Below are positions 120 to 44,765 of a stretch of 44,765 nt of DNA, piece by piece. A program made the translations under genes and the position numbers. The stretch lies in IMG/VR virus record IMGVR_UViG_3300045988_086665; one strand, written 5' to 3'. This DNA comes from a virus. How positions within the stretch are numbered: the first letter of the stretch is position 1; each line of letters starts with the position of its first letter. The notes beneath the pieces were generated by a model. That model searched no databases and had not been told where the DNA came from. It worked only from the letters and a program-made list of their open reading frames with translations.

Positions 120-235
120 TTAGCCACGTCCTCGGTAGCACCGAAATAGAATGTTGCAGCGTATTTCTTCGTTCGCCCTGCACCCTTGCGAGCACCTCCC
201 CAAGACTTGGAGGTAGTTTCATTCGTAGTATTCAT
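41..235 (-). CDS. Small ribbon-helix-helix/Arc-like DNA-binding protein (putative)
   Basis: 64-aa ORF with a basic N-terminus (GGARKGAGRTKK) followed by a short beta-alpha-alpha-like core. It is a paralogue of the 54-aa ORF at 28016-28180 (KGAGRTKK...RSDFINQCIL vs KKGAGATVK...KSRFINDLL). Confidence 0.55.
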   Translation of the reverse strand: MNTTNETTSKSWGGARKGAGRTKKYAATFYFGATEDVANILEGVEKKDRSDFINQCILKAMGRG

Positions 236-246
236 AATGTTAAAAA

Positions 247-278
247 TTTGGTGATATGAAAAATAATTCGTAAATTTG
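247..278 (+). promoter_or_regulatory. Bacteroidota-type promoter (late/terminase operon candidate)
   Basis: TTTG (247-250), a 20-nt spacer, then TAAATTTG (271-278). This matches the -33 TTTG / -7 TAnnTTTG consensus of Bacteroidota primary-sigma promoters. Confidence 0.55.
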
Positions 279-283
279 CAAAC

Positions 284-416
284 GAAATCCCAAAGTGGGG
301 TGGTGGTTCGAGCACCACCCCTTGGAGCTTAGAATAATCTAATCGTAAATGATAAGATTTCTATTTTCCAAATCTTCAATGAAATTTTCAGTACGTTCAT
401 AAGACTTTGGGATTTC
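284..416 (+). promoter_or_regulatory. Structured leader: nested inverted repeats upstream of the terminase genes
   Basis: A 13-bp perfect inverted repeat, gaaatcccaaagt (284-296) / actttgggatttc (404-416), encloses a 9-bp GC-rich hairpin ggggtggtg-N7-caccacccc (297-321) and about 80 nt of AT-rich sequence. It begins right after the 247-278 promoter. Confidence 0.5.
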
Positions 417-472
417 ATTTTACTTTTCCCTCATCCTCGGAGGGTTTCAGTAAATAAGGACTCTTCCCTTAT

Positions 473-488
473 TACGTTTGCAAAGATA
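473..488. promoter_or_regulatory. Abutting -7 boxes on opposite strands (TACGTTTG / rc TATCTTTG)
   Basis: tacgtttgcaaagata gives TAnnTTTG on the + strand (473-480) and TAnnTTTG on the - strand (481-488). Neither has a clean -33 TTTG at the expected spacing. Confidence 0.35.
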
Positions 489-565
489 CGAAATTTATTT
501 GAAATATGCAAGTTTTTCAAGTAGAATTTTTATAAAAAATCAAGTAAATTTCAAGAAATCAAAAT

Positions 566-2974: not shown

Positions 2975-3406
2975 ATGGCAACAATCAGAGAAACATTGAA
3001 GCAGCTGGCAGCAGACACGCTACCGGACTACACCTACCTTTTCGAGGACTGGGACACTGCGGACACCAAGCTGGAGAAGCTGAGCTACCCGGCAATCGTG
3101 TGCATCATACCAGCCAGCGGAACGACAGAGATACGCAACGGCAGGGTTTACGACACCGTGAACGTTGCCCTGGCTTATCTCGACACCGTACCGAGGGGAG
3201 CGGAAGGAGAAGACAACGGAGAGTGCATCGACCGAATGAAGGTGGCAGGGGCAAGGATGATACGAGCCATCAACCAGTCGCACCAGTTCGAACCATTGGA
3301 GGGGCAGCAGTACTACGAGACCATCATCGAGCGGCTGAGCACGATCGTGTCGGGCGTAATGTACTCCCTGCAACTGACACAGAGCATAGGAGGGTGTGTG
3401 GTATGA
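2975..3406 (+). CDS. Hypothetical virion protein (connector/neck-size)
   Basis: 143-aa ORF starting 3 nt after the previous stop. Its stop overlaps the next start (ATGA). Confidence 0.65.
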   Translation: MATIRETLKQLAADTLPDYTYLFEDWDTADTKLEKLSYPAIVCIIPASGTTEIRNGRVYDTVNVALAYLDTVPRGAEGEDNGECIDRMKVAGARMIRAINQSHQFEPLEGQQYYETIIERLSTIVSGVMYSLQLTQSIGGCVV

Positions 3407-3936
3407 GCAAGGGAGGTATTCAATTCGACCCCAAGGCGGCATCGCTGATAATGAGGGAGGAAGTGGAGAGAGCACGGCAGCTTATCATCAACCACATCAG
3501 AATCAACGGACAGAACGCATCGGGGCGCACCATAGCGAGCCTAAAGGTGGAGCAGCCCAGCGAGGATGAGACCATCCTATGGGGACACAAGCCATTCGGT
3601 GTGCTGGAGACTGGACGAAGGGCAGGAAAGATACCATACGGCTTCCGTGGCATCATCCGCCAGTGGATGAAGGACAAGGGACTGCACGGCACACCTATCC
3701 CCTACAAGACCCAGCGACCGCACAAGTACACACCGCAGGAGCGTGGCGATATGAGTATGGCAGGGGCAATTGCCCACACCATCGCTAACAAGGGTTCTAG
3801 GCTGCACCGCACTGGCGGCAGGGCTGACGTGTACAGCAACGTTTTGCCCGACACGATGAAACGGCTGGGGCAGCGACTTATTTTCTTAATCCACCAGTCG
3901 GTGGGGAGTATCAAACTAAACAATGAGACGGTATGA
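3403..3936 (+). CDS. Hypothetical virion protein (possibly HK97-gp10-like tail/neck component)
   Basis: Start placed at ATG 3403 (MSKGGIQFD...), an ATGA overlap with the preceding stop. The track ORF extends back to 3100, but that part overlaps 2975-3406 in another frame. Confidence 0.6.
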   Translation: MSKGGIQFDPKAASLIMREEVERARQLIINHIRINGQNASGRTIASLKVEQPSEDETILWGHKPFGVLETGRRAGKIPYGFRGIIRQWMKDKGLHGTPIPYKTQRPHKYTPQERGDMSMAGAIAHTIANKGSRLHRTGGRADVYSNVLPDTMKRLGQRLIFLIHQSVGSIKLNNETV

Positions 3937-11217: not shown

Positions 11218-12525
11218 ATGGCTAAACTCAGAATATACAACGACATCGACAGCCAAGACAACAAGTTTTGGTATCAATGGTTTGGTGGTGACTGCGTATG
11301 CTTTCAAGATATAGATGCTTTTGCGGCAAGCATACCGAAGGATGATGATACCATCGATATGCGTATCTTCTGCAATGGCGGTTCTGTTGTCGAAGGCTGG
11401 GCGATTTACGACCGACTGCGACAGAGCGGCAAGAAGATAACCTGCACCATTGAGGGCAAGGCTGCTAGTATGGCAACAATCATTATGCTGGCAGCACCAA
11501 AGGAGAGCCGCAAGGCATACGAGAACGCTGCCTTTCTCCTGCACAATCCGTGGGTTCCCGGCTGGTGTCTGGGCGACCAGCTGAACGCAAAGGACTTGAA
11601 GAACCAGGGCGAGGAAATGCAGATGTGGCAGGACAAGATGGTGGACGCATACGTAGAGCGGTGCGGGTGCGACCGGGAAGAGATTCAAGCCTTGATGGAT
11701 AAGGACATCTTCATCAGCACCAGCGAGGCTTTGCGCCTAGGTCTTATAAGCAGCACCGTTGCACCAATCAGCGCAAGCGCATCGAAGCGCAATATCGAAA
11801 ATTTTATTAATTCAAAACAACAAAATCCAAAAGCAATGGAGAAGAAAACAGAAGTTAAGGCTTCTCTCCTTGACAAGATCCTCGCCAAGTTGGGCGTGAA
11901 GTCACTGGAGGAAGCAGAGCAGGCGGTGGCAGAGCCACAAGCCAAGGTAGAGCCACAAGCCAAGGTAGAGCCACAAGCCAAGGTGGAGCCAAAGGCTATG
12001 GAACTCAACACAGCGGACGGACAGACACTGACCGTAGAGCGTGAGGAGGGAGACCCGCAGGTTGGCGACAAGGCAAGTCCGGACGGAACGTTTGAAATGC
12101 CAGATGGAAAGACAATCGTTGTCGAGGATGGTGTAATCACCGACATTAAGACCGCAGACGACACCGACAATGAGGGTGGTGAAGGCGGTGAGGGCAGCAG
12201 CGCATCAAGCACCGACAACGACACCGTAGCCAAGTTGCAGCAGCAGGTAGCAGCACTCAAGCAGCAGTTGAGTGACACCAAGGCACAGCTGGCAAGCGCA
12301 CAGAAACTTGCGAAGAGCAAGGAAGATATGCGCATCTTGAATGCAGTGAAGATGGCAGGCGGTGCGGAGAAGGTGCTTGCAGGCTTCAGCAGCCACTACC
12401 AGCCATCACAACGACAGCCAAGCGGCAAGGGCGCAGGAGAGCAGGTGGACGTTAAGGCGGACGCAAAGACTATCAGCGAGAAGGTCAAGGCTTATCGTTT
12501 CAAGAAGCGACCAAGCAAGGACTAA
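11218..12525 (+). CDS. Prohead serine protease (ClpP/S14-like) fused to a scaffold-like coiled-coil C-terminus
   Basis: 435 aa. The ClpP-like core reads IDMRIFCNGGSVVEGWAIYDRL...IEGKAASMATIIMLAA...FLLHNP (Ser and His in the usual contexts). The C-terminal half is low-complexity/coiled coil (VAKLQQQVAALKQQLSDTKAQLASAQ). The gene sits directly upstream of the capsid gene. Confidence 0.85.
   Translation: MAKLRIYNDIDSQDNKFWYQWFGGDCVCFQDIDAFAASIPKDDDTIDMRIFCNGGSVVEGWAIYDRLRQSGKKITCTIEGKAASMATIIMLAAPKESRKAYENAAFLLHNPWVPGWCLGDQLNAKDLKNQGEEMQMWQDKMVDAYVERCGCDREEIQALMDKDIFISTSEALRLGLISSTVAPISASASKRNIENFINSKQQNPKAMEKKTEVKASLLDKILAKLGVKSLEEAEQAVAEPQAKVEPQAKVEPQAKVEPKAMELNTADGQTLTVEREEGDPQVGDKASPDGTFEMPDGKTIVVEDGVITDIKTADDTDNEGGEGGEGSSASSTDNDTVAKLQQQVAALKQQLSDTKAQLASAQKLAKSKEDMRILNAVKMAGGAEKVLAGFSSHYQPSQRQPSGKGAGEQVDVKADAKTISEKVKAYRFKKRPSKD
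11932..11997 (+). repeat. 18-bp in-frame tandem repeat (about 3.7 copies) encoding (EPQAKV)n
   Basis: gagccacaagccaaggta occurs twice, then gagccacaagccaaggtg, then the partial copy gagccaaaggct. It lies in the linker between the protease and scaffold parts. Confidence 0.9.
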
Positions 12526-24944: not shown

Positions 24945-25400
24945 ATGAGCGAAGTATTTCACGATTTTCAGGTGCACCACCTATATCTGTGCGCCCTAGT
25001 AATTTTTATCTGTTTCGCTACGATTCTGATAGCGATGACAATTGACTTGATAGCAGGCATACAGAAGGCGAAGGAACTGCATATTGCAAGAACGTCAACT
25101 GGACTAAAGAAGACGTGCGACAAGGCGAAGAAGTATTTTCCGACATTCGGTATAGCTTCGCTTATGGACGTTGCTACGTGTATTATCTCTCCCTTCCCTA
25201 TGTTCTCCATCGCCTGGACGGTGTATCTGCTTTTGTGCGAGTTCAAGAGCATCCGGGAGAAGGCATACGAGAAGGCTGAGATACGCAAGCAAGACCGCAC
25301 GATGCAGGTAATACTCGAAAACAAGGATGAAATTGCGAAGGCAGTTGTCGAGATAATGAAAGAAGAGCGGAAGAAAGGAGGAGATAATGAGGGTAACTAG
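24945..25400 (+). CDS. Holin (Phage_holin_4-like)
   Basis: 151 aa with hydrophobic helices (LCALVIFICFATILIAMTIDLIAGI; FGIASLMDVATCIISPF; IAWTVYLLLCEF) and a charged C-terminus. It overlaps the endolysin start by 14 nt. Confidence 0.65.
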   Translation: MSEVFHDFQVHHLYLCALVIFICFATILIAMTIDLIAGIQKAKELHIARTSTGLKKTCDKAKKYFPTFGIASLMDVATCIISPFPMFSIAWTVYLLLCEFKSIREKAYEKAEIRKQDRTMQVILENKDEIAKAVVEIMKEERKKGGDNEGN

Positions 25401-26541: not shown

Positions 26542-26745
26542 GTGCGAAGAACACTTTTCATTGAGAGAAAAGGGGTAGGGGATATGAGAGTTAGATTATA
26601 TATTCATTCAAACTAAGGCGTGCAGGTTATTATTATATAGAGTGTGGAAAACGTACCGAGAACGACCGAAATCGACCGAAAATAGCGGTGTTTATCATAC
26701 AAACAGCTAATAAAAGTTAAAATATTAATATCTTTCGGGAAAAGT

Positions 26746-26843
26746 TTTGGTGGAATGGAAAAATATTAATATCTTTGCATCGTGTTTAAGAGATAAACAC
26801 ATTAAACATTCAGTAACTTAAGCCCTAGGCAACACGGTAAAGC
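26746..26843 (+). promoter_or_regulatory. 98-nt promoter + leader cassette, copy 1
   Basis: TTTG (26746-26749)-N20-TATCTTTG (26770-26777), hairpin gtgtttaagagataaacac (26782-26800), box ttaaacattcag (26802-26813). The cassette is about 90 percent identical to 28358-28455. Confidence 0.7.
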
Positions 26844-28287: not shown

Positions 28288-28357
28288 GCCCATTTTAAGC
28301 CGTAAATGTAAAATAACATTAAAATAACAATAAAATAAAAAGAAAATCGTTTAAAAA

Positions 28358-28455
28358 TTTGGTGGAACGGAAAAATATTAATATCTTTGCATCGTGTTTA
28401 TGAGATAAGCACATTAAACATTCGGTAACTTAAGCCCTACGCATCACGGTTAAGC
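28358..28455 (+). promoter_or_regulatory. 98-nt promoter + leader cassette, copy 2
   Basis: TTTG (28358-28361)-N20-TATCTTTG (28382-28389), hairpin gtgtttatgagataagcac (28394-28412), box ttaaacattcgg (28414-28425). Confidence 0.7.
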
Positions 28456-29036: not shown

Positions 29037-30203
29037 CTATTTTTTATTGTATAGCACGTAATCAATAACCCTGCGGTTTGCTTCATCTACTCTCGATAGG
29101 TCTGCATTGATGTAGGTGTCAGTTACCCGGACACCGAACGAGTGACCCAGTGCCAGCGATATTACGTCCTTTGGTATTCCAAGGTTGAAGGCGATGGATG
29201 CCCACGTATGGCGAGCGTAGTACGTAGTAAGCCCTTGGCGCACCTTTCCTAGCTTCTTATTAATCATTACCGTTGCAGAATCAACATTTTTGAAATGCTC
29301 CGAGAAACGAAGCAGCTTCTTTTCCCCCTTGTATTTCTCGATGATTCGGAGAGCTTCGGGATGAAGAAGGATGGAGTAATGCCTGCCAGTCTTCGCACGG
29401 TCGTATTCCAGTCTGCCACGGACGATATTCTCCTTTGTCAAGGCGAACAAGTCACGCACGTTGATACCAATGAGCAGGAACATAAGCTGGAACATATCGA
29501 CCAGCTCATCACCACCAGCTTCGAAGATAGAGCGGATTTCCTCAACAGACAAGTCTCGCTTTTTCGTTGTCTCAATCCGGAGGCTATACCTGCGGAAGGG
29601 GTAGTTTTTCGTTTGCTCATTATCTATCGCAAGATTGAAGACAGCAGCGACACAGAGCATCCTGCTTGTTCTGGTATTCCTAGACAAGCCTTCCTTTGCC
29701 ATAAAAGCATCGAAGGCTTCAAGCCAAGAGCGGTTAATCTCATCGTATGTAAGCAGAGCCGCTTTTTCCTTCCCAAGGAAAGCTTCAATCTTTGCCCAAG
29801 TGTACTTGTATCTATTGATCGTGTTCTTTTTTAGATTTCTCCCCTCGTAGGCGATGAAGCCATCACGAAGATGGGCGACCCTTTCCCTGGCAGGCTCGGC
29901 TTCAAGGATGATTAAGTCACGAAGCTCCCTAGCCGTAATGTCGCCACGGTAAGTATCCCTGCATTGCGCCTTCATCATCATTCTATTATAAAAATTCAGA
30001 CGGTCAAGAAGGAAGTCGTTGATAGCATCACGATCGGGACGCTTTCGCACCTTACAAGACCTTTTATCCCATTCATCTTTCTTGCAGTATTGATTGAGGG
30101 ATATGAAGGCAGTCCCACCGTGATGGTTAACGGCAAGACGGATGGAGAACGTGCCATCCTGCCTTTTTACCCTCGTGTCTAGATATAATCTCAGTGTTGC
30201 CAT
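29037..30203 (-). CDS. int: Tyrosine site-specific integrase (Bacteroidota phage/CTn type)
   Basis: 388 aa with an N-terminal SAM-like/arm-binding region. The catalytic C-terminus reads YYARHTWASIAFNLGIPKDVISLALGHS...VTDTYI (R, H-x-x-R, H, Y contexts). Confidence 0.92.
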   Translation of the reverse strand: MATLRLYLDTRVKRQDGTFSIRLAVNHHGGTAFISLNQYCKKDEWDKRSCKVRKRPDRDAINDFLLDRLNFYNRMMMKAQCRDTYRGDITARELRDLIILEAEPARERVAHLRDGFIAYEGRNLKKNTINRYKYTWAKIEAFLGKEKAALLTYDEINRSWLEAFDAFMAKEGLSRNTRTSRMLCVAAVFNLAIDNEQTKNYPFRRYSLRIETTKKRDLSVEEIRSIFEAGGDELVDMFQLMFLLIGINVRDLFALTKENIVRGRLEYDRAKTGRHYSILLHPEALRIIEKYKGEKKLLRFSEHFKNVDSATVMINKKLGKVRQGLTTYYARHTWASIAFNLGIPKDVISLALGHSFGVRVTDTYINADLSRVDEANRRVIDYVLYNKK

Positions 30204-32304: not shown

Positions 32305-32661
32305 TTATTTCTGTCCGACAATGGCAAGCAGCGTTTTAACTTGATTTTGCAGGAACTCATTCTGTTCTCGCAGCAGTTTATTCTCAGCAGCCAAGGCAGC
32401 ATCACTACCTATTGACTGGGAAACGTTGGAGCTGTTCGAACCATTGACATTTGAACCGAAGACAGCCTCTTCCATCTCGGCTGGTAGGGGAGGGGCGCAT
32501 TTATCGATGATTTCCTTTATCTTTTGAAAGAAATCTATCTTTATAGACTTGCGATTAAACTTCGCATTCAAGTTCTGCGGACTTGTTCCTAACTCCTCCG
32601 CAACAGCAGCAACGGACATTCCCGAGCGCTTTATATATTGTTTTAGTTCTTCTCCGTTCAT
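32305..32661 (-). CDS. CI-like repressor (XRE-family HTH + leucine-zipper-like C-terminus)
   Basis: 118 aa. HTH: SGMSVAAVAEELGTSPQNLNAKFNRKS. C-terminal coiled coil: AAENKLLREQNEFLQNQVKTLLAIV. It is oriented divergently from the early operon. Confidence 0.75.
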   Translation of the reverse strand: MNGEELKQYIKRSGMSVAAVAEELGTSPQNLNAKFNRKSIKIDFFQKIKEIIDKCAPPLPAEMEEAVFGSNVNGSNSSNVSQSIGSDAALAAENKLLREQNEFLQNQVKTLLAIVGQK

Positions 32662-33380: not shown

Positions 33381-33670
33381 GCAAGTTATCAATCAATATG
33401 CGCAGGATGATCGTGAAGTACACAGACATCTGCTGGCTTATCACTAACTGGAAGGCGAACCGCAAGACCAGAAAGTGCTGCGAACTGAACAACAAGTGCT
33501 ATCTGGAGGCAGAGCGAAGAATCCAGTACAGAGAGTTTAAAGGCAACCTATGCGTTGCACTGGACAATATACCGCTCATACCACTGGACGGAACGGACAA
33601 CGAGGTATTGAAGTCGTGCCGTGAGACCTTCCAAAGTTACATATTCAATCAGAGAGGAGGTAACAAATGA
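33377..33670 (+). CDS. Hypothetical Cys-containing small protein
   Basis: Start placed at ATG 33377 (MSKLSINM...), an ATGA overlap with the previous stop. The track ORF starts earlier at 33278. Confidence 0.6.
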   Translation: MSKLSINMRRMIVKYTDICWLITNWKANRKTRKCCELNNKCYLEAERRIQYREFKGNLCVALDNIPLIPLDGTDNEVLKSCRETFQSYIFNQRGGNK

Positions 33671-35578: not shown

Positions 35579-36520
35579 ATGAAACAGATAATCAAGTACA
35601 AGAACAGAGAGGAATGGTTGCAGAACCGCTCGAACGGAATAGGTGCAAGTGAAGCAGGCACGGTGCTGGGGCTGAATCCGTGGGAAACGCCATACCAGTT
35701 GTGGAGACGCAAGAAGGGTATCGACCCACCAAAGGTTGAGAACTTTGCGATGGTTGCAGGACACCTGCTTGAGGATGCCGTGGCGCAGTTCTTCCAGCGA
35801 GAGAGCCACTGCCACATCATCAAGGCGAGCACTGACGACTACACCATCACGAACACCGATGCACCATATCTGCGTGTATCTCCTGATCGCACCTTCTGGA
35901 GAGCCGGGGCAACGCACAACGAGGCGAGCAAGAGCATCCTGGAGTGCAAGACCACGCAGATGCAGATAGATGCAGACGACCTTCCGAAGCATTGGTTCTG
36001 CCAGTTACAAATGAACCTCGGAGTGGGAGAATACAAGGATGGAGCACTTGCATGGCTGACAGCAGGCAGGGAGTTCGGCTACCGTGACATCGACTTCGAC
36101 CCCGAATTTTACAGATGGATGCGTGACGAGATAACCAAGTTTTGGCTTGACTACATCGTGGGCAACCAAGAGCCACCTGCATACAGCGCACAAGACGTTC
36201 TCCTAAAGTCTCCTCTCCATGTAGCTGGAAAGGAAGTGACCGCAACGAAGGAGATACTCGAACAGATTGCTAGGCTCAAGGAACTCAAGGTTCAGAACAA
36301 GAAACTGGAGACCGAGCAGGATGAGATTGAGGACAACTTGAAGCTGTTCTTCGGGGACGCAGAGAGCATCGTGGACGGAAACGGCAAGACGCTGGCAACG
36401 TGGAAAGCACCGAAGGCAAGTGAGAAGTTCGATGCCAAGGCTTATCTTGAAGACCACCCTAAAGCGTGCGCCAAGTACATCAAGCAGGTGCAGGGAGCAA
36501 GAAGATTACTCATCAAGTAA
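35579..36520 (+). CDS. YqaJ-type viral recombinase exonuclease (lambda-Exo-like)
   Basis: 313 aa. WLQNRSNGIGASEAGTVLGLNPWETPYQLW is the hallmark YqaJ N-terminal motif. Catalytic contexts LRVSPDR and ILECKT are present. Confidence 0.85.
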   Translation: MKQIIKYKNREEWLQNRSNGIGASEAGTVLGLNPWETPYQLWRRKKGIDPPKVENFAMVAGHLLEDAVAQFFQRESHCHIIKASTDDYTITNTDAPYLRVSPDRTFWRAGATHNEASKSILECKTTQMQIDADDLPKHWFCQLQMNLGVGEYKDGALAWLTAGREFGYRDIDFDPEFYRWMRDEITKFWLDYIVGNQEPPAYSAQDVLLKSPLHVAGKEVTATKEILEQIARLKELKVQNKKLETEQDEIEDNLKLFFGDAESIVDGNGKTLATWKAPKASEKFDAKAYLEDHPKACAKYIKQVQGARRLLIK

Positions 36521-36708: not shown

Positions 36709-37725
36709 ATGAACGATTCATTTATCTTATACACATCATACTACGCTCTTATCGAGGGACTGACCGATGAACAACTCGGGCAACTTACGAGAGCGATATT
36801 TCTCTACGCAAGGGATGGGGAGATTATCAGTCTCGAACCAGTCGTGCGTATGGCTTTCGCCTTTATCAAGGACAATATCGAGCGCAATCAAGACAAGTAT
36901 CAAGCCAAGTGTGAGAAAAATAGACAGATTGCACTTGAAAGAGAAAGAAAAAAGCGAGAGGCAAGAGAAAAAGCAGGTAACACGAACGTGCACGAACGTT
37001 CACCTTATGATAATGATAATGAATATGATAATGATAGTGATAATGATGTTTCTAAAGAAACAGATATATTAGAACCTTCTAAAGAAGCTTCTATGCAAAG
37101 TTTTTCCGAGAAAAACGTTTGCGCTGCAGAAGAGCCGCAAAAAAGTTCTGAGAAGAAATCCAAGAAAGGTGAAATCGACTACGCAGCCATCAAGGACTAC
37201 TGGAACGAGCAGCACGACAAGACCAACAGCGCAATGAGAAGGCTTACGCTGATGACGGACAACCGCAAGGAGGCAATCAGAGGAAGGCTCAAGGACTGCA
37301 AGGGAGATATTTCCAAGATTTACCTAGCCATCGACAAGGCTATGGCTAGCGACTATCTGAACGCAGGGCATTCCTGGGCATCATACGACTGGGTAATGAC
37401 ACGGAAGTATTTCCCGAAGGTGCTGGAGGGCAACTACGACAACACCAAGCCAGCCGCAAGCCAGCAGCCGCAATCGGCAGAAGCCAGGGCGCAGGATCCA
37501 GCGGCAACGGCAAGACCGAGCATCGGGGAACGCTACGAGCTAGCCAAGCACCGACAGCCAGCATCCCAGCAGAGCCAGGACAACAAGTTCCGATGGGTAA
37601 TCCAGCAGAACCTTGCCGACTTGAAGAAGAACCCACGGAACAAGCCAGCCAAGGATTCACTGGCGAGATTCTACGAGAAGGGAGTTCTGCAGCGACTGGG
37701 CATCGACTGGAAGCCCGAAAAATAG
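36709..37725 (+). CDS. Replication-organiser/initiator-like protein
   Basis: 338 aa. The N-terminus SFILYTSYYALIEGLTDEQLGQLTRAIFLYARDGE resembles the N-terminal module of Bacteroidota phage/CTn replication proteins (from recall). There is a basic linker, an acidic DN-rich insert and a conserved-looking C-terminal domain (IDYAAIKDYWNEQ...ASYDWVMTRKYF). Confidence 0.6.
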   Translation: MNDSFILYTSYYALIEGLTDEQLGQLTRAIFLYARDGEIISLEPVVRMAFAFIKDNIERNQDKYQAKCEKNRQIALERERKKREAREKAGNTNVHERSPYDNDNEYDNDSDNDVSKETDILEPSKEASMQSFSEKNVCAAEEPQKSSEKKSKKGEIDYAAIKDYWNEQHDKTNSAMRRLTLMTDNRKEAIRGRLKDCKGDISKIYLAIDKAMASDYLNAGHSWASYDWVMTRKYFPKVLEGNYDNTKPAASQQPQSAEARAQDPAATARPSIGERYELAKHRQPASQQSQDNKFRWVIQQNLADLKKNPRNKPAKDSLARFYEKGVLQRLGIDWKPEK

Positions 37726-40583: not shown

Positions 40584-40718
40584 ATGGCGAGCGAACTTTG
40601 CAAGGCTTGCGAGGAAGGGCGGAACTGCATTAACGGCAGGTACTGCCCAACTCGCAGGCGATATGTTGAACACCAAGACATCAAGGAATGCAATGGGAAG
40701 AAAGAAGAAGTACACTGA
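40584..40718 (+). CDS. Possible 44-aa Cys-rich peptide
   Basis: Internal start of the 40509-40718 track ORF: MASELCKACEEGRNCINGRYCPTRRRYVEHQDIKECNGKKEEVH. Confidence 0.3.
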   Translation: MASELCKACEEGRNCINGRYCPTRRRYVEHQDIKECNGKKEEVH

Positions 40719-41145
40719 CGAGGAAATTAAAGAGCACAATCGAGAGAGAGCACGCAGATACTACGTCCTGCACCGTGAAGAAATGATGAGGAGAAACCGG
40801 GAATGGAGAAGGGCGAACCCCGACAGAATCAGAGAGTACGGAAAAAGACAGCGTAAAAGGCGCAACGTCTCTCAGTACAACTCGGAGTATTACCGCAAGA
40901 ACCGACAGAGATTGATTGAGCTTGCGAGCGACTGGAGAAAGGCGAACCCCGAAAAGGTCAAGGGTTACAACGACAAGCAGAAGAAGCTGCGGAGAATTGA
41001 AGCCGAAAGAAAGAAGCTGGATAGGGCAAGCCTGGAAGCGCAGGCTTCCATTTTCCGTGATCCGCAGGCGGCAGAGCACTTCAAGTGGCTTGCAGAGCGT
41101 GTAAGGAGAAAGAAGGAGCAATCCTTGCTCAAAGCAGCAAGATAA
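40693..41145 (+). CDS. Highly basic repeat protein
   Basis: Start placed at ATG 40693 (MGRKKKYTDEE); the track ORF starts at 40663. It has two copies of W-R-[RK]-A-N-P-[DE]-[RK]-[IV]-[RK]-x-Y-x-x-[RK]-Q-[RK]-K. Confidence 0.6.
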   Translation: MGRKKKYTDEEIKEHNRERARRYYVLHREEMMRRNREWRRANPDRIREYGKRQRKRRNVSQYNSEYYRKNRQRLIELASDWRKANPEKVKGYNDKQKKLRRIEAERKKLDRASLEAQASIFRDPQAAEHFKWLAERVRRKKEQSLLKAAR

Positions 41146-41210
41146 GTACTTAACCAGCGAATGAATGCCGCAAACGGCAAACAACATCAATTATAACACA
41201 TTTGAGACTG

Positions 41211-41218
41211 TATCTTTG
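41211..41218 (+). promoter_or_regulatory. -7 box TATCTTTG at the start of a 560-nt non-coding region
   Basis: Exact TAnnTTTG with no canonical -33. No ORF follows for about 490 nt. Confidence 0.4.
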
Positions 41219-41546
41219 CGCTCAATGTAATCACTTAAATTATTAATCTGGCAACTCGGAAAGACGAGAGTCGTCCGGCATTCATTCCAACAAAAAAGAA
41301 AGCGAGGTGAACACGAAGAAATAGAAGAAATAACAGAAGACAGCTAAGTGCAGGAATCCCGAAACGAGGAACATCGGGAACTTCCTGCAACCCAAAGAGG
41401 GAGTGTTTGCGGAATAAACTCATTCGGTACGAGATATTCTTTATTTTGCATATCGCCAGGCACTCCCTCGATTTTTCCGTTTCAAGCCCGCAAGACGATG
41501 AAAGGAGGAGGGACTATAGGGTAGAGGATAGGAATAGTAGGGGGCT

Positions 41547-41580
41547 AGCGCACAAGCGCACACAAGCGCACACACGCACG
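41547..41580 (+). repeat. Iteron-like tandem repeats AGCGCACA(CA)
   Basis: agcgcaca agcgcacaca agcgcacacacgcacg, read directly. Confidence 0.85.
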
Positions 41581-41704
41581 TAAGACTCCGCAACCCGAAC
41601 AACTACCCACAGACGCAGAGATAACGGCTTAGAACGAAAATTTCAAGAAAATAACAAAAAAAGAAAATAAAAAATAAAACAAAAGTAAAACAAAAGAAAA
41701 CGAG

Positions 41705-42247
41705 ATGGAAAAAGGAACAGTTATAATCGGAATCGACCCCGACATCAAGGAAAGCGGTGTCGGAGCCGTATTTGACGATAGAAAATTCTTAGCCTACAAG
41801 ATGAACTTCCCGGCTCTGATTGACTACTTGAAGGCAATGAACGAGAGCTGCAAGAAGATTAAGGTCGTTATTGAAGGCGGCTGGCTCAACAAGAGCAACT
41901 GGCACGTACTAGGCAGATTTATGTCGGCAGTCAAGGCAGCAGCAATCGGACGCTCAACCGGGATGAACCATCAGACCGGGATCCTTATCGTAGAATGCTG
42001 CGAGCATTACAATATCCCATACGAGATAATCAAGCCGCTGAAGAAGTGCTGGAAAGGCAAGGACGGAAAAATAACACAAGACGAAATCGCCTACTTCATC
42101 AGCTCAGACGGAAAGCTCCCGAGAATGAACCAAGACCAGAGAGACGCACTTCTCCTCGCCTGGGTGTGCGCAGGATACCCGGTCAAGGTCAAGCCAAAGA
42201 AACAAGAAACAACCCTTCAGAAGACCATCAGAGCCTTTGATGGATAA
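41705..42247 (+). CDS. RuvC-fold Holliday-junction resolvase (putative)
   Basis: 180 aa with IIGIDPD (first catalytic Asp), VVIEGGW (Glu) and QDQRDALLLAW (C-terminal Asp) in RuvC-like order and spacing. Confidence 0.6.
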   Translation: MEKGTVIIGIDPDIKESGVGAVFDDRKFLAYKMNFPALIDYLKAMNESCKKIKVVIEGGWLNKSNWHVLGRFMSAVKAAAIGRSTGMNHQTGILIVECCEHYNIPYEIIKPLKKCWKGKDGKITQDEIAYFISSDGKLPRMNQDQRDALLLAWVCAGYPVKVKPKKQETTLQKTIRAFDG

Positions 42248-42313: not shown

Positions 42314-42345
42314 TATCTTTGCGCCAGTGTTTATTAAATAAGCAC
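42314..42345 (+). promoter_or_regulatory. -7 box TATCTTTG plus 19-nt leader hairpin, promoter of the methylase gene
   Basis: TATCTTTG (42314-42321), then gtgtttattaaataagcac (42327-42345). Position and sequence are the same as in the two 98-nt cassettes. Confidence 0.55.
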
Positions 42346-42372
42346 GAATTTCGAACTTAAAACAAGAAGAAA

Positions 42373-44067
42373 ATGAAAACAGAAGAAATCGCACTATCGA
42401 GGGTCAGCGAGAACGAAGCGAACCCTCGAACCATAACAGAGGCGAACTTCCAAAAGCTGGTAAAGAGCATCCTTGTATTTCCTAAGATGCTCCAGCTTCG
42501 CCCGATAGTCGTGGATGAGACCTACAAGGCACTGGGTGGCAATATGAGAACGAGAGCACTCTGCCACATCGTGAGTATGACACCCGAAGCCATTATGGAC
42601 GTTCTCGACACAGACCAGCGACTGACCGATGCAGAGAAGCTGGCAATCGCCAACTACTGGAGCCAGTGGAAGGAGCAGCCGACTGCAACCATCGTTAAGG
42701 CATCAGACCTCACAGAAGCGCAGAAGAAAGAATTCATCATCAAAGATAATGCAGGCTTCGGAGACTGGAACACAGAAGAACTGGCGAACCAGTTCGGAGA
42801 CCAGCCGTTGACGGACTGGGCAATCCCACAATGGATTCTCGGTATGGCAGGCATCAGCAATGAACAAAAGGAGGGGGGCGATACTCCAACGGAAGGAGAA
42901 GGAGCACCGAAACCAAGCCTAGTGGATAAGTTTGTCGTTCCTCCCTTCTCAATCCTCGACACACGCCAAGGCTACTGGGTTGAGCGCAAGAAGCAATGGC
43001 GTGCCATCGTTTCCAGCAAGGACATCGGGGCAAGCCGTGAACAGACCCTGGTCCGTTCCAAGGAAATGCGATACAAGGAACTGTACTCCAAGAGCGAAAA
43101 GTTCAGAAAAGAGAAAGGCATCTCTTTCGATGAGTATCTCGAGTACTATGTATCGCCCGAAGAGAAAGCCAAGGCGGACCGTAGCGTATTGGCGCAGGGT
43201 ACAAGCCTTTTCGACCCAGTACTGGCAGAAATCATTATGCGATGGTTCTGCAAGCCACACGGAAAGATTATCGACCCATTCGGAGGAGAACAGACCAAGG
43301 GCGTTGTTGCTGGTACGCTGGGCTACGACTACCAAGCAGTGGAAATCCGCAAGGAGCAGGTCGACATCAACACAGAAGCGACCAAGGACTACGGCAGCGT
43401 GAAATATTTCTGCGGTGACTCTAACAACATCGGGCAGATAATCAAAGACAGCGATTTCGACCTCTGCTTCACCTCGCCACCATATTACGACCTCGAAGTC
43501 TATAGCAAGGAGGATATGAGCGCACTCGGCACATACGAGGAGTTTATGAGCCAGTACGAGAACATCTTCAAGCAATGCGTGGATAAGATGAAGGACGGTT
43601 CATTCCTGGTTGTCAAGATTGGAGAGGTGCGAAACAAGAAGAACGGAGAGTACCGAAATTTCGTTGGCGACAATATCTCCACCTTCCTGCGGCTCGGTCT
43701 TCACTATTACAACGAACTTATCTTGATCGAGCAGGTCGCGTCCCGATGCCTTAGAGCCGATGGCGGTATGAAAAGCCGCAAGACACAGAAGTGCCACCAG
43801 AACGTGCTCGTTTTCTATAAAGGCGAAATGGACGAAATCAAGAAGACGTTCGAGGATATGCGACAGCCCGAAAAGATGCACTCCAACGTTCTGGTATTCT
43901 ACAAGGGCGACCCGAAACACGTTCAAGACCATTTTCAGCCCATCGAATACAACGAGGAAGAAGCACAGCAGCTTGCGGACACCTTCAACAGCGTAGCACC
44001 GCCAGCAGGCGAGGAAGAGCAACCAGCAGAGAAAGGAGGGCAGGATGGACAAGGCACAGACGATTGA
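42373..44067 (+). CDS. ParB/Srx-domain - SAM-dependent DNA methyltransferase fusion
   Basis: 564 aa. N-terminal ParB-like nuclease domain (ENEANPRTI...LRPIVVD...ALGGNMRTRA). Methylase part has SAM motif I (IIDPFGGEQTKG), catalytic motif FTSPPYYD about 65 aa later, and a LVVKIG segment. Confidence 0.85.
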   Translation: MKTEEIALSRVSENEANPRTITEANFQKLVKSILVFPKMLQLRPIVVDETYKALGGNMRTRALCHIVSMTPEAIMDVLDTDQRLTDAEKLAIANYWSQWKEQPTATIVKASDLTEAQKKEFIIKDNAGFGDWNTEELANQFGDQPLTDWAIPQWILGMAGISNEQKEGGDTPTEGEGAPKPSLVDKFVVPPFSILDTRQGYWVERKKQWRAIVSSKDIGASREQTLVRSKEMRYKELYSKSEKFRKEKGISFDEYLEYYVSPEEKAKADRSVLAQGTSLFDPVLAEIIMRWFCKPHGKIIDPFGGEQTKGVVAGTLGYDYQAVEIRKEQVDINTEATKDYGSVKYFCGDSNNIGQIIKDSDFDLCFTSPPYYDLEVYSKEDMSALGTYEEFMSQYENIFKQCVDKMKDGSFLVVKIGEVRNKKNGEYRNFVGDNISTFLRLGLHYYNELILIEQVASRCLRADGGMKSRKTQKCHQNVLVFYKGEMDEIKKTFEDMRQPEKMHSNVLVFYKGDPKHVQDHFQPIEYNEEEAQQLADTFNSVAPPAGEEEQPAEKGGQDGQGTDD

Positions 44068-44554: not shown

Positions 44555-44646
44555 GACGATATGCGGGCGTATGTGGCGCGTTCTCAAACTATGCGTATAA
44601 CTAAGCGTGATTGGAACGTTCGAGCCGTGTGCGCAAAATTCGCACA

Positions 44647-44765
44647 AAATAACCTCCAAGGGAGCGGAAACGAAAAAGGCAGGAGTTTAACCCCTGCCCA
44701 TCGCTTTGAGAATACACTGGTTGATGAAGTCGCTGCGGTCTTTCTTTTCGACTCCTTCCAAGATG
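44647..44765. repeat. Terminal direct repeat, copy 2 (identical to 1-119)
   Basis: Same 119 nt as the window start. It contains a truncated second copy of the 3' part of the 41-235 gene. Confidence 0.95.

What the first reader, a model, noticed from the sequence alone, without database searches (positions are those of the whole stretch)
41146..41704. 560-nt non-coding, purine-rich, highly structured region with iteron-like repeats: origin of replication or large ncRNA
This is the largest gene-free stretch in the genome. It opens with a TATCTTTG -7 box (41211-41218). The + strand is then strikingly purine-rich for about 450 nt and contains several elements. There is a 12-bp bulged hairpin caggaatcccga...tcgggaacttcctg (41351-41387). 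There is a 9-bp long-range stem gagggagtg (41397-41405) / cactccctc (41461-41469). A G/A block ggaggagggactatagggtagaggataggaatagtaggggg precedes tandem AGCGCACA(CA) repeats (41547-41580). A second long-range pairing joins ccgtttcaagcc (41477-41488) with ggcttagaacg (41626-41636). The region ends in a 60-nt A-tract (41641-41700). Iterons, an A/T-rich unwinding element and a promoter feeding a G-rich transcript match a transcription-activated or R-loop-primed origin. A promoter plus conserved stems could equally indicate a roughly 480-nt structured RNA. The only track ORF here (41235-41423, minus strand) is a pyrimidine-strand artefact.
Basis: partly seen in the sequence, partly recalled or inferred. 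Interest (0 to 1): 0.65.

Follow-up and report, generated by a model that had tools for sequence, protein, structure and literature searches.

The report
Conserved structured RNA leader before phage resolvase
The 560-base gap in front of the RuvC-like resolvase gene of this Segatella (Prevotella) copri temperate phage most likely encodes a conserved, multi-hairpin RNA leader absent from Rfam rather than a replication origin, and it carries an unusually strong ribosome-binding motif in a bacterial group whose ribosomes normally ignore such motifs.

Summary
The described features are at the stated coordinates. Two descriptors are overstated: the gap is the second-largest gene-free stretch, and its purine content is only about 1.7 sd above the genome mean.

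About 130 distinct related leaders from IMG/VR and metagenomes keep a 250-420-nt non-coding stretch between a conserved motif and the RuvC-like gene. This holds down to 52-72% RuvC protein identity. One relative is a prophage in Segatella copri HF1825.

Shared architecture:
- Helix P1 closes a 5' domain.
- An invariant AGAAAG(C)GAGGUG is complementary to the Bacteroidia 16S rRNA 3' tail. In 101 of 131 relatives it is followed by a 2-3-codon minigene. The window has ACG instead of AUG.
- A long hairpin P3 is followed by a U run.
- A G-run/GA block sits inside a long-range helix.
- An A-rich translation start region precedes the gene.

P1 and P3 use different complementary sequences in different lineages. 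G·U pairs favour the + strand RNA. Several sub-elements vary less than synonymous codon sites. No Rfam family matches.

The TATCTTTG promoter is lineage-specific (18 of 131). The GCGCAC repeats vary in number and orientation and are absent in one lineage. A classical iteron array plus AT-rich run lies inside the initiator gene about 4.5 kb upstream.

Verdict: a new cis-acting RNA leader, probably an attenuator or processing element. The origin reading is not supported.

The parts
41152..41158 (+). AACCAGC anchor just after the stop codon of the upstream gene; marks the 5' edge of the conserved element
   Evidence: Present right after the upstream gene in type 1, type 2, L332, L350 and L348-like (AACAAGC) lineages.
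41159..41170 (+). P1 helix, 5' strand (GAAUGAAUGCCG)
   Evidence: 12 nt, 100% complementary to 41276-41287 (I1). Other lineages have different complementary pairs at the same two positions, for example UGGGCAG/CUGCCCA, GGAUGGC/GCCAUC and GGGGAUG/CAUCUCC.
41211..41218 (+). TATCTTTG Bacteroidota-type -7 promoter box, lineage-specific, lying inside the P1-enclosed domain
   Evidence: The exact 8-mer occurs 11 times in the window; 8 are TATCTTTGC at intergenic sites facing genes. Only 18 of 131 distinct relatives have any TAnnTTTG here, and many close relatives read TATCGTTTG.
41240..41272 (+). Conserved motif UUAUUAAUCUG, followed by the small hairpin CUCG-GAAAGA-CGAG (41257-41272)
   Evidence: Shared with L004, L332, L348 and L350 as ...CACG-GAAAGA-CGUG, a compensatory U-A to A-U change. 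Zero diversity among 24 close relatives. The motif is unique in the window.
41276..41287 (+). P1 helix, 3' strand (CGGCAUUCAUUC)
41297..41309 (+). AGAAAGCGAGGUG: extended Shine-Dalgarno-like motif complementary to the 16S rRNA 3' tail, with one bulged C
   Evidence: Invariant in all 19 aligned lineage representatives. Duplex with ACACCUCCUUUCU is -16.8 kcal/mol, third best on the + strand of the window. The SD oligo AGAAAGGAGGU was used against the Bacteroidetes tail in PMC7797042.
41313..41315 (+). ACG at the position where most relatives have the AUG of a 2-3-codon minigene (MKK*, MK*, MKE*, MKT*)
   Evidence: 101 of 131 distinct relatives have an intact AUG minigene. All 27 with ACG or ACA carry the window-type P1 module, and 15 of those 27 have a second AUGAAAUAA nearby. 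The window has none.
41349..41389 (+). P2, optional bulged hairpin in the spacer
   Evidence: I13 plus the inner CCCGA/UCGGG. Absent in class B, L362 and L380 lineages. The L382 lineage has GCAAGAA.../...UUCUUGC at the same place, one compensatory pair relative to GCAGGAA.../...UUCCUGC.
41397..41469 (+). P3, long hairpin. Outer helix 41397-41409/41457-41469; alternative inner helix 41408-41418/41440-41450; conserved loop motifs CUCAUUCGGUA (41419-41429) and UUAUUUUGCA (41441-41450)
   Evidence: z = -4.8. Outer helix 97.6% paired over 41 distinct sequences, with 3 pairs changed on both sides; slid controls 47-59%. Six different sequence solutions across lineages. + strand 89.8% paired against 76.9% if read on the - strand. 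Model R1 finds the untrained lineage L447/L538 and nothing else relevant.
41472..41476 (+). U5 run two bases after P3, giving a terminator-like arrangement
   Evidence: GAUUUUUCC, GUUUUUCC, GAUAUUUUUG and AUUUUUACC follow the hairpin in 5 of 6 lineages. Type 2 has UUUCUCU. Diversity 0.017.
41477..41488 (+). P4 long-range helix, 5' strand (CCGUUUCAAGCC)
   Evidence: Pairs with 41626-41636. Among 40 type-1 sequences, 15 carry changes that keep or improve pairing and 2 carry changes that break a pair. Short-form lineages have UUCCGU/ACGGAA at the same place.
41500..41544 (+). G/A-rich block with G runs (GGAGGAGGGACUAUAGGG...GGGGG)
   Evidence: All lineages keep two G runs separated by ACUAUA, AUUAUA or UA. 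A canonical G3+ quadruplex motif occurs in 77 of 133 relatives but not in the window. Second strong anti-SD complement at 41492, -15.6 kcal/mol.
41545..41582 (+). GCGCAC direct repeats forming an alternating purine-pyrimidine tract
   Evidence: D2 and TRF. Diversity 0.010, with copy-number indels. Type 2 has an inverted or palindromic arrangement, short forms have a single CGUGCGCACG palindrome, and L447 has none.
41626..41636 (+). P4 long-range helix, 3' strand (GGCUUAGAACG)
   Evidence: diversity 0.006.
41641..41704 (+). A-rich tract running into the RuvC-like start codon (41705); probable SD-less translation initiation region
   Evidence: 75% A. A-rich upstream regions are the rule for genes in this window. 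Length varies by indels and is much shorter in type 2.

Best explanation
The region is a conserved, multi-helix RNA domain on the + strand. It is an intercistronic leader that lies between an early gene and the RuvC-like Holliday-junction resolvase gene of a Segatella copri temperate phage.

In window coordinates its parts are:
- Helix P1 (41159-70/41276-87) closes a 5' domain.
- An invariant motif (41297-41309) is complementary to the 16S rRNA 3' tail. In most relatives it drives a 2-3-codon minigene.
- P2 is an optional hairpin.
- P3 (41397-41469) is a long hairpin with conserved loop motifs, followed by a U run.
- A domain closed by helix P4 holds G runs and GCGCAC repeats.
- An A-rich, SD-less translation start region precedes the gene.

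I infer that it acts in cis after transcription initiation to limit or time expression of the resolvase and perhaps of the genes behind it. The most likely route is that P3 plus the U run works as a regulated terminator (attenuator) or as a double-strand RNA processing or stability site. Ribosome binding at the strong SD/minigene would be the probable input.

Shown here: conservation, covariation, strand preference and the absence of a conserved promoter. Inferred: termination or processing, and the role of the ribosome. In this particular window the minigene AUG is mutated to ACG and a private promoter sits inside the P1 loop, so its copy is a derived variant.
For: Relatives and synteny:
- Relatives keep the non-coding stretch upstream of the RuvC-like gene even where blastn sees no similarity.
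- This holds down to 52-72% RuvC identity.
- 77 of 119 IMG/VR and 40 of 120 metagenome motif hits have the RuvC-like gene 250-416 nt downstream.

Helix P3:
- 97.6% of cells pair in the outer helix.
- Three pairs are changed on both sides.
- The inner helix varies only by C-G/U-G and A-U/G-U changes.
- Slid controls give 47-59% pairing.
- Six different arm sequences occur across lineages.

Other helices:
- P1 uses different complementary sequences at the same two positions in type 1, class B, type 2, L332 and L348.
- The small 5' hairpin and P2 each show one compensatory pair.

Strand and selection:
- Pairing is 89.8% on the + strand against 76.9% if read on the - strand, with 147 G.U cells.
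- Diversity is 0.00-0.02 in the 5' hairpin, P2, the U run with the P4 arms, and the GCGCAC repeats. It is 0.07-0.13 at third codon positions of the flanking genes.

SD motif and minigene:
- The extended SD is invariant and pairs at -16.8 kcal/mol.
- An intact minigene is present in 101 of 131 distinct relatives.

Other points:
- Only 18 of 131 relatives have a canonical promoter here, so most copies must be transcribed from upstream.
- A U run follows P3 in 5 of 6 lineages.
- No Rfam family and no tRNA match.
- Background: Bacteroidia ribosomes sequester the anti-SD, and exceptionally strong SDs (below -13 kcal/mol) are otherwise characteristic of rpsU, which is read better by bS21-less ribosomes (PMC9976891; PMC7797042).
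Against: - There are no transcript data, so the ends, termination and processing are all untested.
- Compensatory changes come from few independent lineages (effective sequence number 2.3 in model R1).
- P3 has a large apical domain, unlike typical intrinsic terminators, and the tool's terminator scan does not call it.
- The type 2 lineage has only a weak U run.
- A specific antiterminator pairing between the SD motif and the P3 3' arm/U tail is no better than composition-matched shuffles.
- The window itself lacks the minigene AUG.
- Rare deletion variants lack the SD motif and the 5' arm of P3 (L068, L423).
- The GCGCAC repeats and G runs have no demonstrated RNA role and could be DNA-level sites.
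- The minus strand also folds better than shuffles.
- The 16S 3' tail of S. copri itself was not checked. The tail sequence used comes from Flavobacterium johnsoniae and was extended by two bases from memory.
Confidence: 0.55

Rival explanations
1. Replication origin. The GCGCAC repeats would be iterons for the 36709 initiator. The A tract would be the unwinding element. The promoter plus G-rich non-template strand would give R-loop or transcription-activated priming.
For: - Direct repeats, G runs, an alternating purine-pyrimidine tract and an 82% purine, 75% A tract sit within 200 nt.
- The repeats are very conserved among close relatives, with diversity 0.010.
- Repeat copy number varies, as iterons often do.
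- Type 2 relatives carry a canonical G-quadruplex motif.
Against: - A much better origin signature lies inside the initiator gene. CACGAACGU units (2 in the window, 5 to at least 7 in relatives) are directly followed by an (ATGATA)n AT-rich run, as in lambda O/ori.
- The repeats here have irregular 8/10/8 spacing. They become inverted or palindromic in type 2, a single palindrome in short forms, and are absent in L447.
- The feeding promoter is present in only 18 of 131 relatives.
- The window has no canonical quadruplex motif.
- G.U-dependent, strand-specific helix conservation points to RNA-level selection.
- A-rich tracts precede most genes here.
Confidence: 0.08
2. A free-standing, trans-acting non-coding RNA, either an sRNA or a larger RNP RNA. 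It would end at the P3 hairpin and U run, or be processed out of the operon transcript. The conserved P3 loop motifs (CUCAUUCGGUA, UUAUUUUGCA) would act as a seed or as a protein-binding site.
For: - Hairpin plus U run is the standard sRNA 3' end.
- Loop sequences are conserved across lineages in which the stem sequence changes.
- The window has its own promoter about 250 nt upstream of the U run.
Against: - Most relatives lack a promoter in the region.
- Conservation continues for more than 200 nt past the U run up to the resolvase start.
- The element is always directly upstream of the RuvC-like gene, even when the upstream gene is swapped.
- No target or partner protein is identified.
Confidence: 0.17
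3. An RNase III-type processing and mRNA-stability site in a polycistronic early transcript. P3 is about 22 bp in two helices with an asymmetric bulge. It and P1 would be cleaved to separate the resolvase mRNA from upstream cistrons, as at the phage T7 early intercistronic sites or the lambda N leader (comparison from established knowledge).
For: - Intercistronic position with no conserved promoter.
- An 11+11-bp helix with an 8-10-nt 3' bulge in many type-1 sequences.
- Long, lineage-specific P1 duplexes.
Against: - Nothing here tests cleavage.
- This reading does not explain the invariant SD/minigene, the conserved loop motifs, the U run or the G-run domain.
Confidence: 0.12
4. No function of its own. 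On this reading the region is a mosaic recombination junction plus an ordinary long leader, and the apparent conservation reflects recent common ancestry.
For: - The region is visibly mosaic. Segment 41159-41391 or 41483-41659 is replaced in some lineages, and the whole region from 40696 to about 41692, including the upstream gene, is replaced in type 2.
- Most relatives are closely related gut contigs from one large dataset.
Against: - The same architecture recurs with different sequence in lineages whose resolvase is only 52-72% identical.
- Helices are maintained by compensatory changes.
- Sub-elements are more conserved than synonymous sites.
- A 13-nt motif is invariant.
Confidence: 0.05

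Closest known systems
Leader-ORF (minigene) attenuators. Examples: the translational attenuation leader of the Bacteroides CTnDOT tetQ-rteA-rteB operon (PMC3809561; its very short leader peptide is recalled from memory) and the two-codon 'bar' minigenes of phage lambda (mentioned in PMC2490762).
   Same: A strong ribosome-binding site, AUG, 1-2 further codons and a stop lie in an untranslated leader of a mobile element, upstream of hairpins that could gate downstream expression. The CTnDOT case is in the same bacterial order.
   Different: - The leader here is 400-550 nt with at least four helices.
- The SD is an extended 16S-tail complement.
- No alternative antiterminator pairing could be shown.
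- No inducing signal is known.
- The window's own copy has lost the AUG.
Extended-SD autoregulation of rpsU (bS21) in Bacteroidia (PMC9976891, PMC7797042)
   Same: An exceptionally strong complement to the 16S 3' tail (-16.8 kcal/mol against the below -13 criterion) occurs in a phylum whose ribosomes normally occlude the anti-SD. The motif AGAAAG(C)GAGGUG matches the SD oligo AGAAAGGAGGU apart from one bulged C.
   Different: - It precedes a 2-3-codon minigene in a phage leader, not rpsU.
- Other coupled genes of this phage also have strong SDs, so SD use may be less exceptional in this host or phage.
- Dependence on bS21 is untested.
Intrinsic terminators and attenuators in lambdoid early operons (nut site, then tR terminators upstream of late regulators; established knowledge)
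   Same: A GC-rich stem base directly followed by a U run, inside a rightward early operon between the replication genes and the nin-like resolvase region. A small purine-loop hairpin (CUCG-GAAAGA-CGAG) lies upstream and is reminiscent of boxB.
   Different: - P3 has a 50-nt structured apical part with conserved loop motifs.
- No N- or Q-like antiterminator was identified among neighbouring proteins.
- The boxA/boxB resemblance is only visual and was not tested.
Lambda-type origin (iterons plus AT-rich region inside the initiator gene O)
   Same: The finding has direct repeats next to an A/T-rich tract.
   Different: The lambda-like arrangement is found elsewhere in this genome, inside the initiator gene at about 36975-37050. 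The repeats in the finding are not conserved in number, orientation or presence across lineages.
Large phage- or prophage-associated structured RNAs in Rfam (GOLLD, ROOL, HEARO and others)
   Same: A several-hundred-nucleotide conserved structured non-coding region in a prophage.
   Different: No match to any of 4227 Rfam models, either at gathering score (window and seven relatives) or up to E = 10 in the region. The element is tied in cis to one gene.

Membership tests
Iteron-type / lambda-like replication origin | Array of similar direct repeats (initiator binding sites), usually at least 3-4 copies at regular spacing | tested here: inconclusive
   The window has 3-4 GCGCAC units at 8/10/8-nt spacing. 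Regular helical phasing is absent.
Iteron-type / lambda-like replication origin | Repeats conserved in kind and arrangement among relatives | tested here: not met
   Type 2 has inverted or palindromic units, short forms have one palindrome, and L447 has none.
Iteron-type / lambda-like replication origin | Location within or next to the initiator gene, with an adjacent AT-rich unwinding region | tested here: not met
   The finding lies about 3.4 kb downstream of the initiator gene's end (37725). The initiator gene itself contains CACGAACGU iterons (2 to at least 7 copies in relatives) plus an (ATGATA)n run.
Iteron-type / lambda-like replication origin | Supports initiator-dependent replication | not testable with these tools
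   Needs a plasmid replication assay or marker-frequency analysis.
Transcription/R-loop-primed origin (ColE1- or mitochondrial CSBII-like) | Conserved promoter directing transcription through a G-rich non-template strand | tested here: not met
   TAnnTTTG is present in 18 of 131 distinct relatives. G runs are conserved, but the window has no canonical quadruplex motif.
Intrinsic (Rho-independent) terminator / attenuator | GC-rich stem immediately followed by a U run | tested here: met
   GAGGGAGUG.../...CACUCCCUC is followed by GAUUUUU. A comparable U run follows in 5 of 6 lineages.
Intrinsic (Rho-independent) terminator / attenuator | Compact hairpin (short loop) | tested here: not met
   The apical part is about 47-55 nt with its own helices, and the consensus terminator scan does not report it.
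Intrinsic (Rho-independent) terminator / attenuator | Mutually exclusive antiterminator pairing | tested here: not met
   Pairing of the SD motif with the P3 3' arm/U tail is not better than shuffled tails in 7 lineages. Other alternatives were not searched exhaustively.
Intrinsic (Rho-independent) terminator / attenuator | Transcript 3' ends at the U run | not testable with these tools
   Needs Term-seq or in vitro transcription.
Leader minigene / leader-peptide control | Ribosome-binding site, start codon, very short ORF and stop in the leader | tested here: not met
   Not met in the window (ACG at 41313-41315, no alternative AUG). Met in 101 of 131 distinct relatives (MKK*, MK*, MKE*, MKT*). 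All 27 with ACG or ACA carry the window-type P1 module, and 15 of those have a second AUGAAAUAA.
Extended-SD element read by ribosomes with a free anti-SD (rpsU-like) | Pairing with the 16S 3' tail stronger than about -13 kcal/mol | tested here: met
   -16.8 kcal/mol in the window and -17.3 in relatives, against the tail ACACCUCCUUUCU. The tail sequence comes from F. johnsoniae, extended from memory; the S. copri 16S was not checked.
Extended-SD element read by ribosomes with a free anti-SD (rpsU-like) | Translation stimulated in bS21-depleted ribosomes | not testable with these tools
   Needs toeprinting or reporter assays as in PMC9976891.
Any Rfam family | Score at or above the family's gathering threshold | tested here: not met
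   No hits in the window or in 7 relatives. Within the region only chance-level eukaryotic models appear at E of 1 or more.
Bacteroidota invertible promoter (inverton) | Promoter flanked by inverted repeats | tested here: met
   A 12-bp perfect inverted repeat, 41159-70/41276-87, flanks the TATCTTTG box.
Bacteroidota invertible promoter (inverton) | Both orientations present in populations | tested here: not met
   94 of 94 related loci have the inner segment in the same orientation as the RuvC-like gene. Other lineages have non-homologous complementary pairs at the same site, which fits an RNA helix.
RNase III processing site | About two turns of imperfect double-stranded RNA in an intercistronic region | tested here: met
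   P3 has 11+11 bp with an asymmetric bulge, and P1 has 12 bp or more.
RNase III processing site | Specific cleavage | not testable with these tools
   Needs end mapping or an in vitro cleavage assay.

The most novel reading that the evidence does not exclude
The element is a phage-encoded sensor of the host ribosome's state. The invariant 16S-tail complement plus 2-3-codon minigene would be engaged only by ribosomes whose anti-SD is free, for example bS21-poor or immature 30S subunits in Bacteroidia. That engagement would change the folding, termination or processing at the P3 hairpin. Expression of the Holliday-junction resolvase and downstream genes would then be tied to the cell's translational status. 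This would be the first regulatory use of the 'SD-blind ribosome' peculiarity outside ribosomal-protein autoregulation.
Probability: 0.1. Interest if true: 0.85.

Novelty: new variant of a known kind. Interest (0 to 1): 0.6.

Why it matters
Segatella copri is one of the most abundant human gut bacteria, and its temperate phages are almost unstudied.

A conserved, covariation-supported RNA leader that matches no Rfam family would add a new cis-regulatory RNA class for Bacteroidota phages. It would also give a handle on how these phages time a potentially toxic DNA-cutting enzyme.

The invariant, very strong anti-SD complement with a 2-3-codon minigene is notable in a class whose ribosomes normally ignore SD sequences. 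It offers a natural test case for specialised (bS21-less) ribosome function beyond rpsU.

Practically, the work moves the likely origin of replication to the initiator gene. This matters for anyone engineering these phages or building Segatella vectors.

Tried and rejected
- Rfam at gathering score (window and 7 relatives) and at E up to 10 in the region gave nothing relevant.
- The tRNA/tmRNA scan found none.
- blastn against GenBank phages found no match.
- The sigma-70 promoter scan found none, and the consensus terminator scan found nothing in the region.
- A genome-contig scan with a 15-mer was a poor choice. Nearly all 120 hits were chance SD-like gene starts. Only L130 (Segatella copri HF1825) was real, and it gave the host.
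- The inverton idea for the 12-bp inverted repeat was dropped because no inverted copies occur in 94 loci.
- The P3 loop motif UUAUUUUGCA was considered as an internal or late promoter. It is one base short of TAnnTTTG in all lineages but one, and it is not repeated elsewhere in the genome.
- The SD motif was tested as an antiterminator partner of the P3 3' arm/U tail. It is no better than shuffles.
- The window has no canonical G-quadruplex motif.
- A pac/cos site is unlikely, because terL (1223-2401) and the probable terS lie after the 1-565 gap, 3 kb away.
- A small protein gene on either strand was rejected because the ORFs are not conserved and are interrupted by indels or module swaps.
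- A guide RNA for a TnpB/IscB-type nuclease was considered only because of the RuvC fold. The protein is 180 aa and matches the phage Holliday-junction resolvase PHROG. PDB sequence search was uninformative.
- The upstream 160-aa basic protein was examined as a candidate RNA-binding regulator. It has no family or PDB hit.
- Model R1 does not recognise the type 2 hairpin. Homology of type 1 and type 2 P3 therefore rests on position, the shared loop motif and the flanking motifs.
Full report
**Setting.** The window is a lambda-like temperate phage genome.
- The integrase (29037-30203) and repressor (32305-32661) are on the minus strand.
- A rightward early operon follows, with a RecE-like exonuclease (35579-36520) and a replication initiator of the DnaD/O-like kind (36709-37725).
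- Several unknown small genes come next, then the gap under study.
- After the gap lie a 180-aa RuvC-like protein (41705-42247; PHROG 1770 Holliday-junction resolvase, E = 2e-16), a ParB-methyltransferase fusion (42373-44067) and a 169-aa unknown.
- After a second large gap come the terminase and structural genes.
- TATCTTTGC, an exact Bacteroidota -7 element, recurs at eight intergenic sites facing genes.
- A near-identical relative of the type 2 form lies in a Segatella copri HF1825 contig, so the host is Segatella/Prevotella.

**Observation check.** Three descriptors are too strong.
- The gap (559 nt without an ORF of 70 aa or more) is second to bases 1-565.
- Purine content of 41250-41700 is 0.639, against 0.567 +/- 0.043 for 450-nt windows. 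That ranks 54th of 1773, in a genome whose whole + strand is purine- and A-rich.
- GCGCAC is not enriched genome-wide, and the units here are spaced 8/10/8 nt.
- The minus-strand ORF 41235-41423 and the two 58-aa plus-strand ORFs are not conserved.

**Relatives.** Protein-anchored and motif-anchored scans gave several hundred loci and 133 distinct upstream sequences.
- By blastn the gap is mosaic. Some lineages replace 41159-41391 with about 65 nt, and others replace 41483-41659 with about 95 nt. A large 'type 2' group replaces the whole region from 40696 to about 41692, including the upstream gene.
- Nevertheless almost all keep 330-560 nt without a gene in front of the RuvC-like gene.
- A 13-nt motif search shows the RuvC-like gene 250-416 nt downstream in 77 of 119 viral and 40 of 120 metagenome hits. 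The remaining hits are ordinary SD-plus-ATG gene starts of unrelated organisms.
- Divergent members whose RuvC-like protein is only 52-72% identical (L332/L549, L348/L356/L507, L350/L357, L447/L538) have the same order of parts.

**Architecture (window coordinates).**
1. AACCAGC lies right after the upstream stop codon (41152-41158).
2. Helix P1 is 41159-41170/41276-41287, 12 perfect pairs. In the window it encloses the TATCTTTG box, the conserved UUAUUAAUCUG, and a small hairpin CUCG-GAAAGA-CGAG (41257-41272).
3. AGAAAGCGAGGUG lies at 41297-41309.
4. P2 is an optional hairpin at 41349-41389.
5. P3 is the long hairpin 41397-41469, with conserved loop motifs CUCAUUCGGUA and UUAUUUUGCA. It is followed by GAUUUUU.
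6. A domain is closed by P4 (41477-41488/41626-41636). It contains the G/A block with G runs, the GCGCAC repeats and a variable segment.
7. A 60-nt A-rich tract runs into the AUG at 41705.

**Evidence that this is a selected RNA structure.**
- *P3.* On 41 distinct type-1-like sequences plus three divergent lineages, the outer helix is paired in 97.6% of cells. Three pairs are changed on both sides. The inner helix varies only by C-G/U-G and A-U/G-U exchanges. Sliding the 3' partner by 1-3 columns drops pairing from 89.8% to 47-59%.
- *P3 arm sequences.* Across lineages the arms are:
  - GAGGGAGUGYUUG/CARGCACUCCCUC
  - GGGG(AA)UAGUG/CACUACCCC
  - GGGGACGUGC/GCACGUUCCC
  - GGAGGGCGGUGC/GGCAUCGCCCUUC
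  - In type 2, a three-helix version: GGCUGGCGG.GGA..GGAAG..CCUGC/GCAGG..CUUCC..UCC.CUGCCAGCU. It has its own CCUGC/GCAGG to UCUGC/GCAGA exchange.
- *Model R1.* A covariance model built on the first set finds the untrained L447/L538 lineage at the right place (E about 0.002-0.02). It gives no comparable hit in 16 unrelated control loci or elsewhere in the window.
- *P1.* It shows the same behaviour, with different complementary sequences at the same two positions in five lineages. This is why I read the 12-bp inverted repeat as an RNA helix rather than as inverton arms. None of 94 related loci has the inner segment flipped.
- *Strand.* G.U pairs are frequent (147 cells). Pairing would fall from 89.8% to 76.9% on the opposite strand. 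Folding energy alone does not distinguish the strands.
- *Diversity.* Among 24 distinct close relatives, nucleotide diversity is 0.00 in the small 5' hairpin, 0.016 in P2, 0.017 in the U run with the P4 5' arm, 0.006 in the P4 3' arm and 0.010 in the GCGCAC repeats. It is 0.071 and 0.127 at third codon positions of the two flanking genes. One internal segment (41583-41625) drifts at 0.103.
- *P4.* It is less secure. Of 17 variant sequences, 15 keep or improve pairing and 2 break it. Short-form lineages have an analogous UUCCGU/ACGGAA helix.

**The invariant motif.**
- AGAAAG(C)GAGGUG is identical in all 19 lineage representatives.
- Apart from one bulged C, it equals the SD oligonucleotide AGAAAGGAGGU that was used against the Bacteroidetes 16S 3' tail ACCUCCUUUCU (PMC7797042).
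- Its predicted pairing energy is -16.8 kcal/mol, the third strongest on the + strand of the window. The two stronger sites and the next one are real starts of translationally coupled genes. Most genes have A-rich, SD-less starts.
- In 101 of 131 distinct relatives an AUG follows 4-6 nt later and opens a 2-3-codon ORF (AUG AAG AAR stop, AUG AAG stop, and similar).
- All 27 sequences with ACG or ACA at that position, including the window, carry the window-type P1 module. Fifteen of the 27 have a second AUG AAA UAA nearby, but the window does not.
- In Bacteroidia the anti-SD is occluded. Exceptionally strong SDs are otherwise the hallmark of rpsU, which is read preferentially by bS21-less ribosomes (PMC9976891).
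- I could not check the S. copri 16S end itself.

**Promoter.** The TATCTTTG box is a good promoter by the genome's own standard. Even so, only 18 of 131 distinct relatives have any TAnnTTTG between the upstream gene and the RuvC-like start. Many of the window's closest relatives read TATCGTTTG. P1 starts upstream of the box. The conserved entity is therefore an intercistronic part of the early transcript, and the window has acquired a private promoter inside the P1 loop.

**Why not an origin.**
- The initiator gene itself contains CACGAACGU direct repeats followed at once by an (ATGATA)n AT-rich run, in the linker between its two domains.
- Relatives carry five to at least seven copies of the same unit before the same AT-rich run.
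- This is the lambda O/ori arrangement (established knowledge) and is a far better origin candidate.
- In the finding, the repeats differ in number and orientation between lineages and are absent in L447. The feeding promoter is not conserved. The window has no canonical quadruplex motif. The A tract is the normal start context.
- I leave 8% for a DNA-level role, because the GCGCAC tract (alternating purine-pyrimidine) and the G runs are conserved and I have no RNA explanation for them.

**Mechanism.**
- *Shown:* a conserved, strand-specific, multi-helix RNA region tied in cis to the resolvase gene.
- *Inferred:* it limits or times resolvase expression after initiation.
- *Favoured route:* P3 plus its U run acts as a regulated terminator. 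A GC-rich stem base followed by U5 is kept in five of six lineages. Ribosome loading at the SD/minigene would be the input. In the minimal lineages the minigene stop codon is only 12-17 nt from the 5' arm of P3, so a terminating ribosome would reach the stem base. In other lineages the spacer is 40-80 nt, which weakens this coupling.
- *Failed test:* a direct antiterminator pairing between the SD motif and the P3 3' arm/U tail is not better than shuffled controls.
- *Alternative:* an RNase III-type processing or stability site fits the 11+11-bp bulged helix and the intercistronic position equally well, and cannot be separated from attenuation here.
- *Less likely:* a free-standing sRNA ending at the U run, because conservation continues to the start codon and most relatives lack a promoter.

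**Known relatives and novelty.**
- No Rfam family matches, and I found no paper describing the element.
- It works most like leader-ORF attenuators. Examples are the CTnDOT tetQ operon leader in Bacteroides (PMC3809561) and lambda bar-type minigenes (PMC2490762). It also resembles terminator checkpoints in lambdoid early operons.
- It is not a member of any defined family. Two defining features failed for the window: the intact minigene and a demonstrable alternative pairing.
- I rate it a new variant of a known kind.
- The most novel reading not excluded is a phage sensor of free-anti-SD (bS21-poor) ribosomes. I give it about 10%.

**Limits.**
- There are no expression data.
- Independent lineages are few, so the covariation counts are not a formal test.
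- Type 1 and type 2 hairpins are equated by position and shared motifs, not by a model hit.
- The 16S tail was taken from another Bacteroidia species.

Noticed in passing
window 36975-37050 (inside initiator gene 36709-37725); relatives L088, L093, L103, L106, L113: CACGAACGT(g/t) direct repeats are followed at once by an (ATGATA)n AT-rich run. There are 2 copies in the window and 5 to at least 7 in relatives. This is the best candidate for the phage replication origin, in a lambda O/ori-like arrangement.
   Followed up: partly
window 26743-26830 and 28355-28442; also 42314-42350: An approximately 90-nt promoter-plus-leader module is duplicated almost exactly. It reads TATCTTTGcatc, then the hairpin GTGTTTAagagaTAAACAC. 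A similar post-promoter hairpin follows the 42314 promoter. This may be a shared leader regulatory hairpin.
   Followed up: no
window 33645-33666, 44023-44044, 25365-25386 (also 14312, 24426, 38404): Very strong anti-SD complements (-16 to -18 kcal/mol) sit directly before the start codons of genes that overlap or abut the preceding gene. Most other genes have A-rich, SD-less starts. This suggests SD use for translational coupling in a Bacteroidota phage.
   Followed up: partly
window 41159-41170 / 41276-41287: A perfect 12-bp inverted repeat flanks the TATCTTTG promoter and looks like a Bacteroidota inverton. No flipped copy occurs among 94 related loci.
   Followed up: yes
window 40663-41145: The upstream 160-aa protein is very basic, with repeated W-R-x-A-NPE-K...Y motifs. 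It has no Pfam, PHROG, NCBIfam or PDB match. Homologues with the same C-terminal ...AAEHFKWL... motif precede the element in nearly all lineages, so it is a candidate partner of the RNA.
   Followed up: partly
L068 and L423 (IMG/VR relatives): These are deletion variants. The upstream gene is fused into the 5' side of the type 2 hairpin through a GAGGAAGAA/GAAGGAAGAA microhomology. They lack the SD/minigene and the outer 5' arm.
   Followed up: no
L007 about 3334-3597 and downstream: A second copy of GAAAGCGAGGTG sits at the end of a different upstream gene, about 85 nt before the regular copy.
   Followed up: no
window 1-565 plus 44555-44765: This is the largest gene-free stretch, in front of the probable small terminase gene (566-1171, which oddly hits an 'RNase E' PHROG). 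It has TATCTTTG boxes on the minus strand at 488 and a GC hairpin at 285-325. It is the likely packaging and late-control region.
   Followed up: no
window 41680-41687 (minus strand); type 1 relatives: TACTTTTG and TATTTTTG -7-like boxes lie on the minus strand inside the A tract, in most type 1 lineages but not in type 2. They could drive antisense transcription across the leader, or they may be a by-product of A-richness.
   Followed up: partly
window 11931-11991: An 18-nt unit (AGAGCCACAAGCCAAGGT) is repeated 3.4 times in frame inside gene 11218-12525 (97% matches).
   Followed up: no
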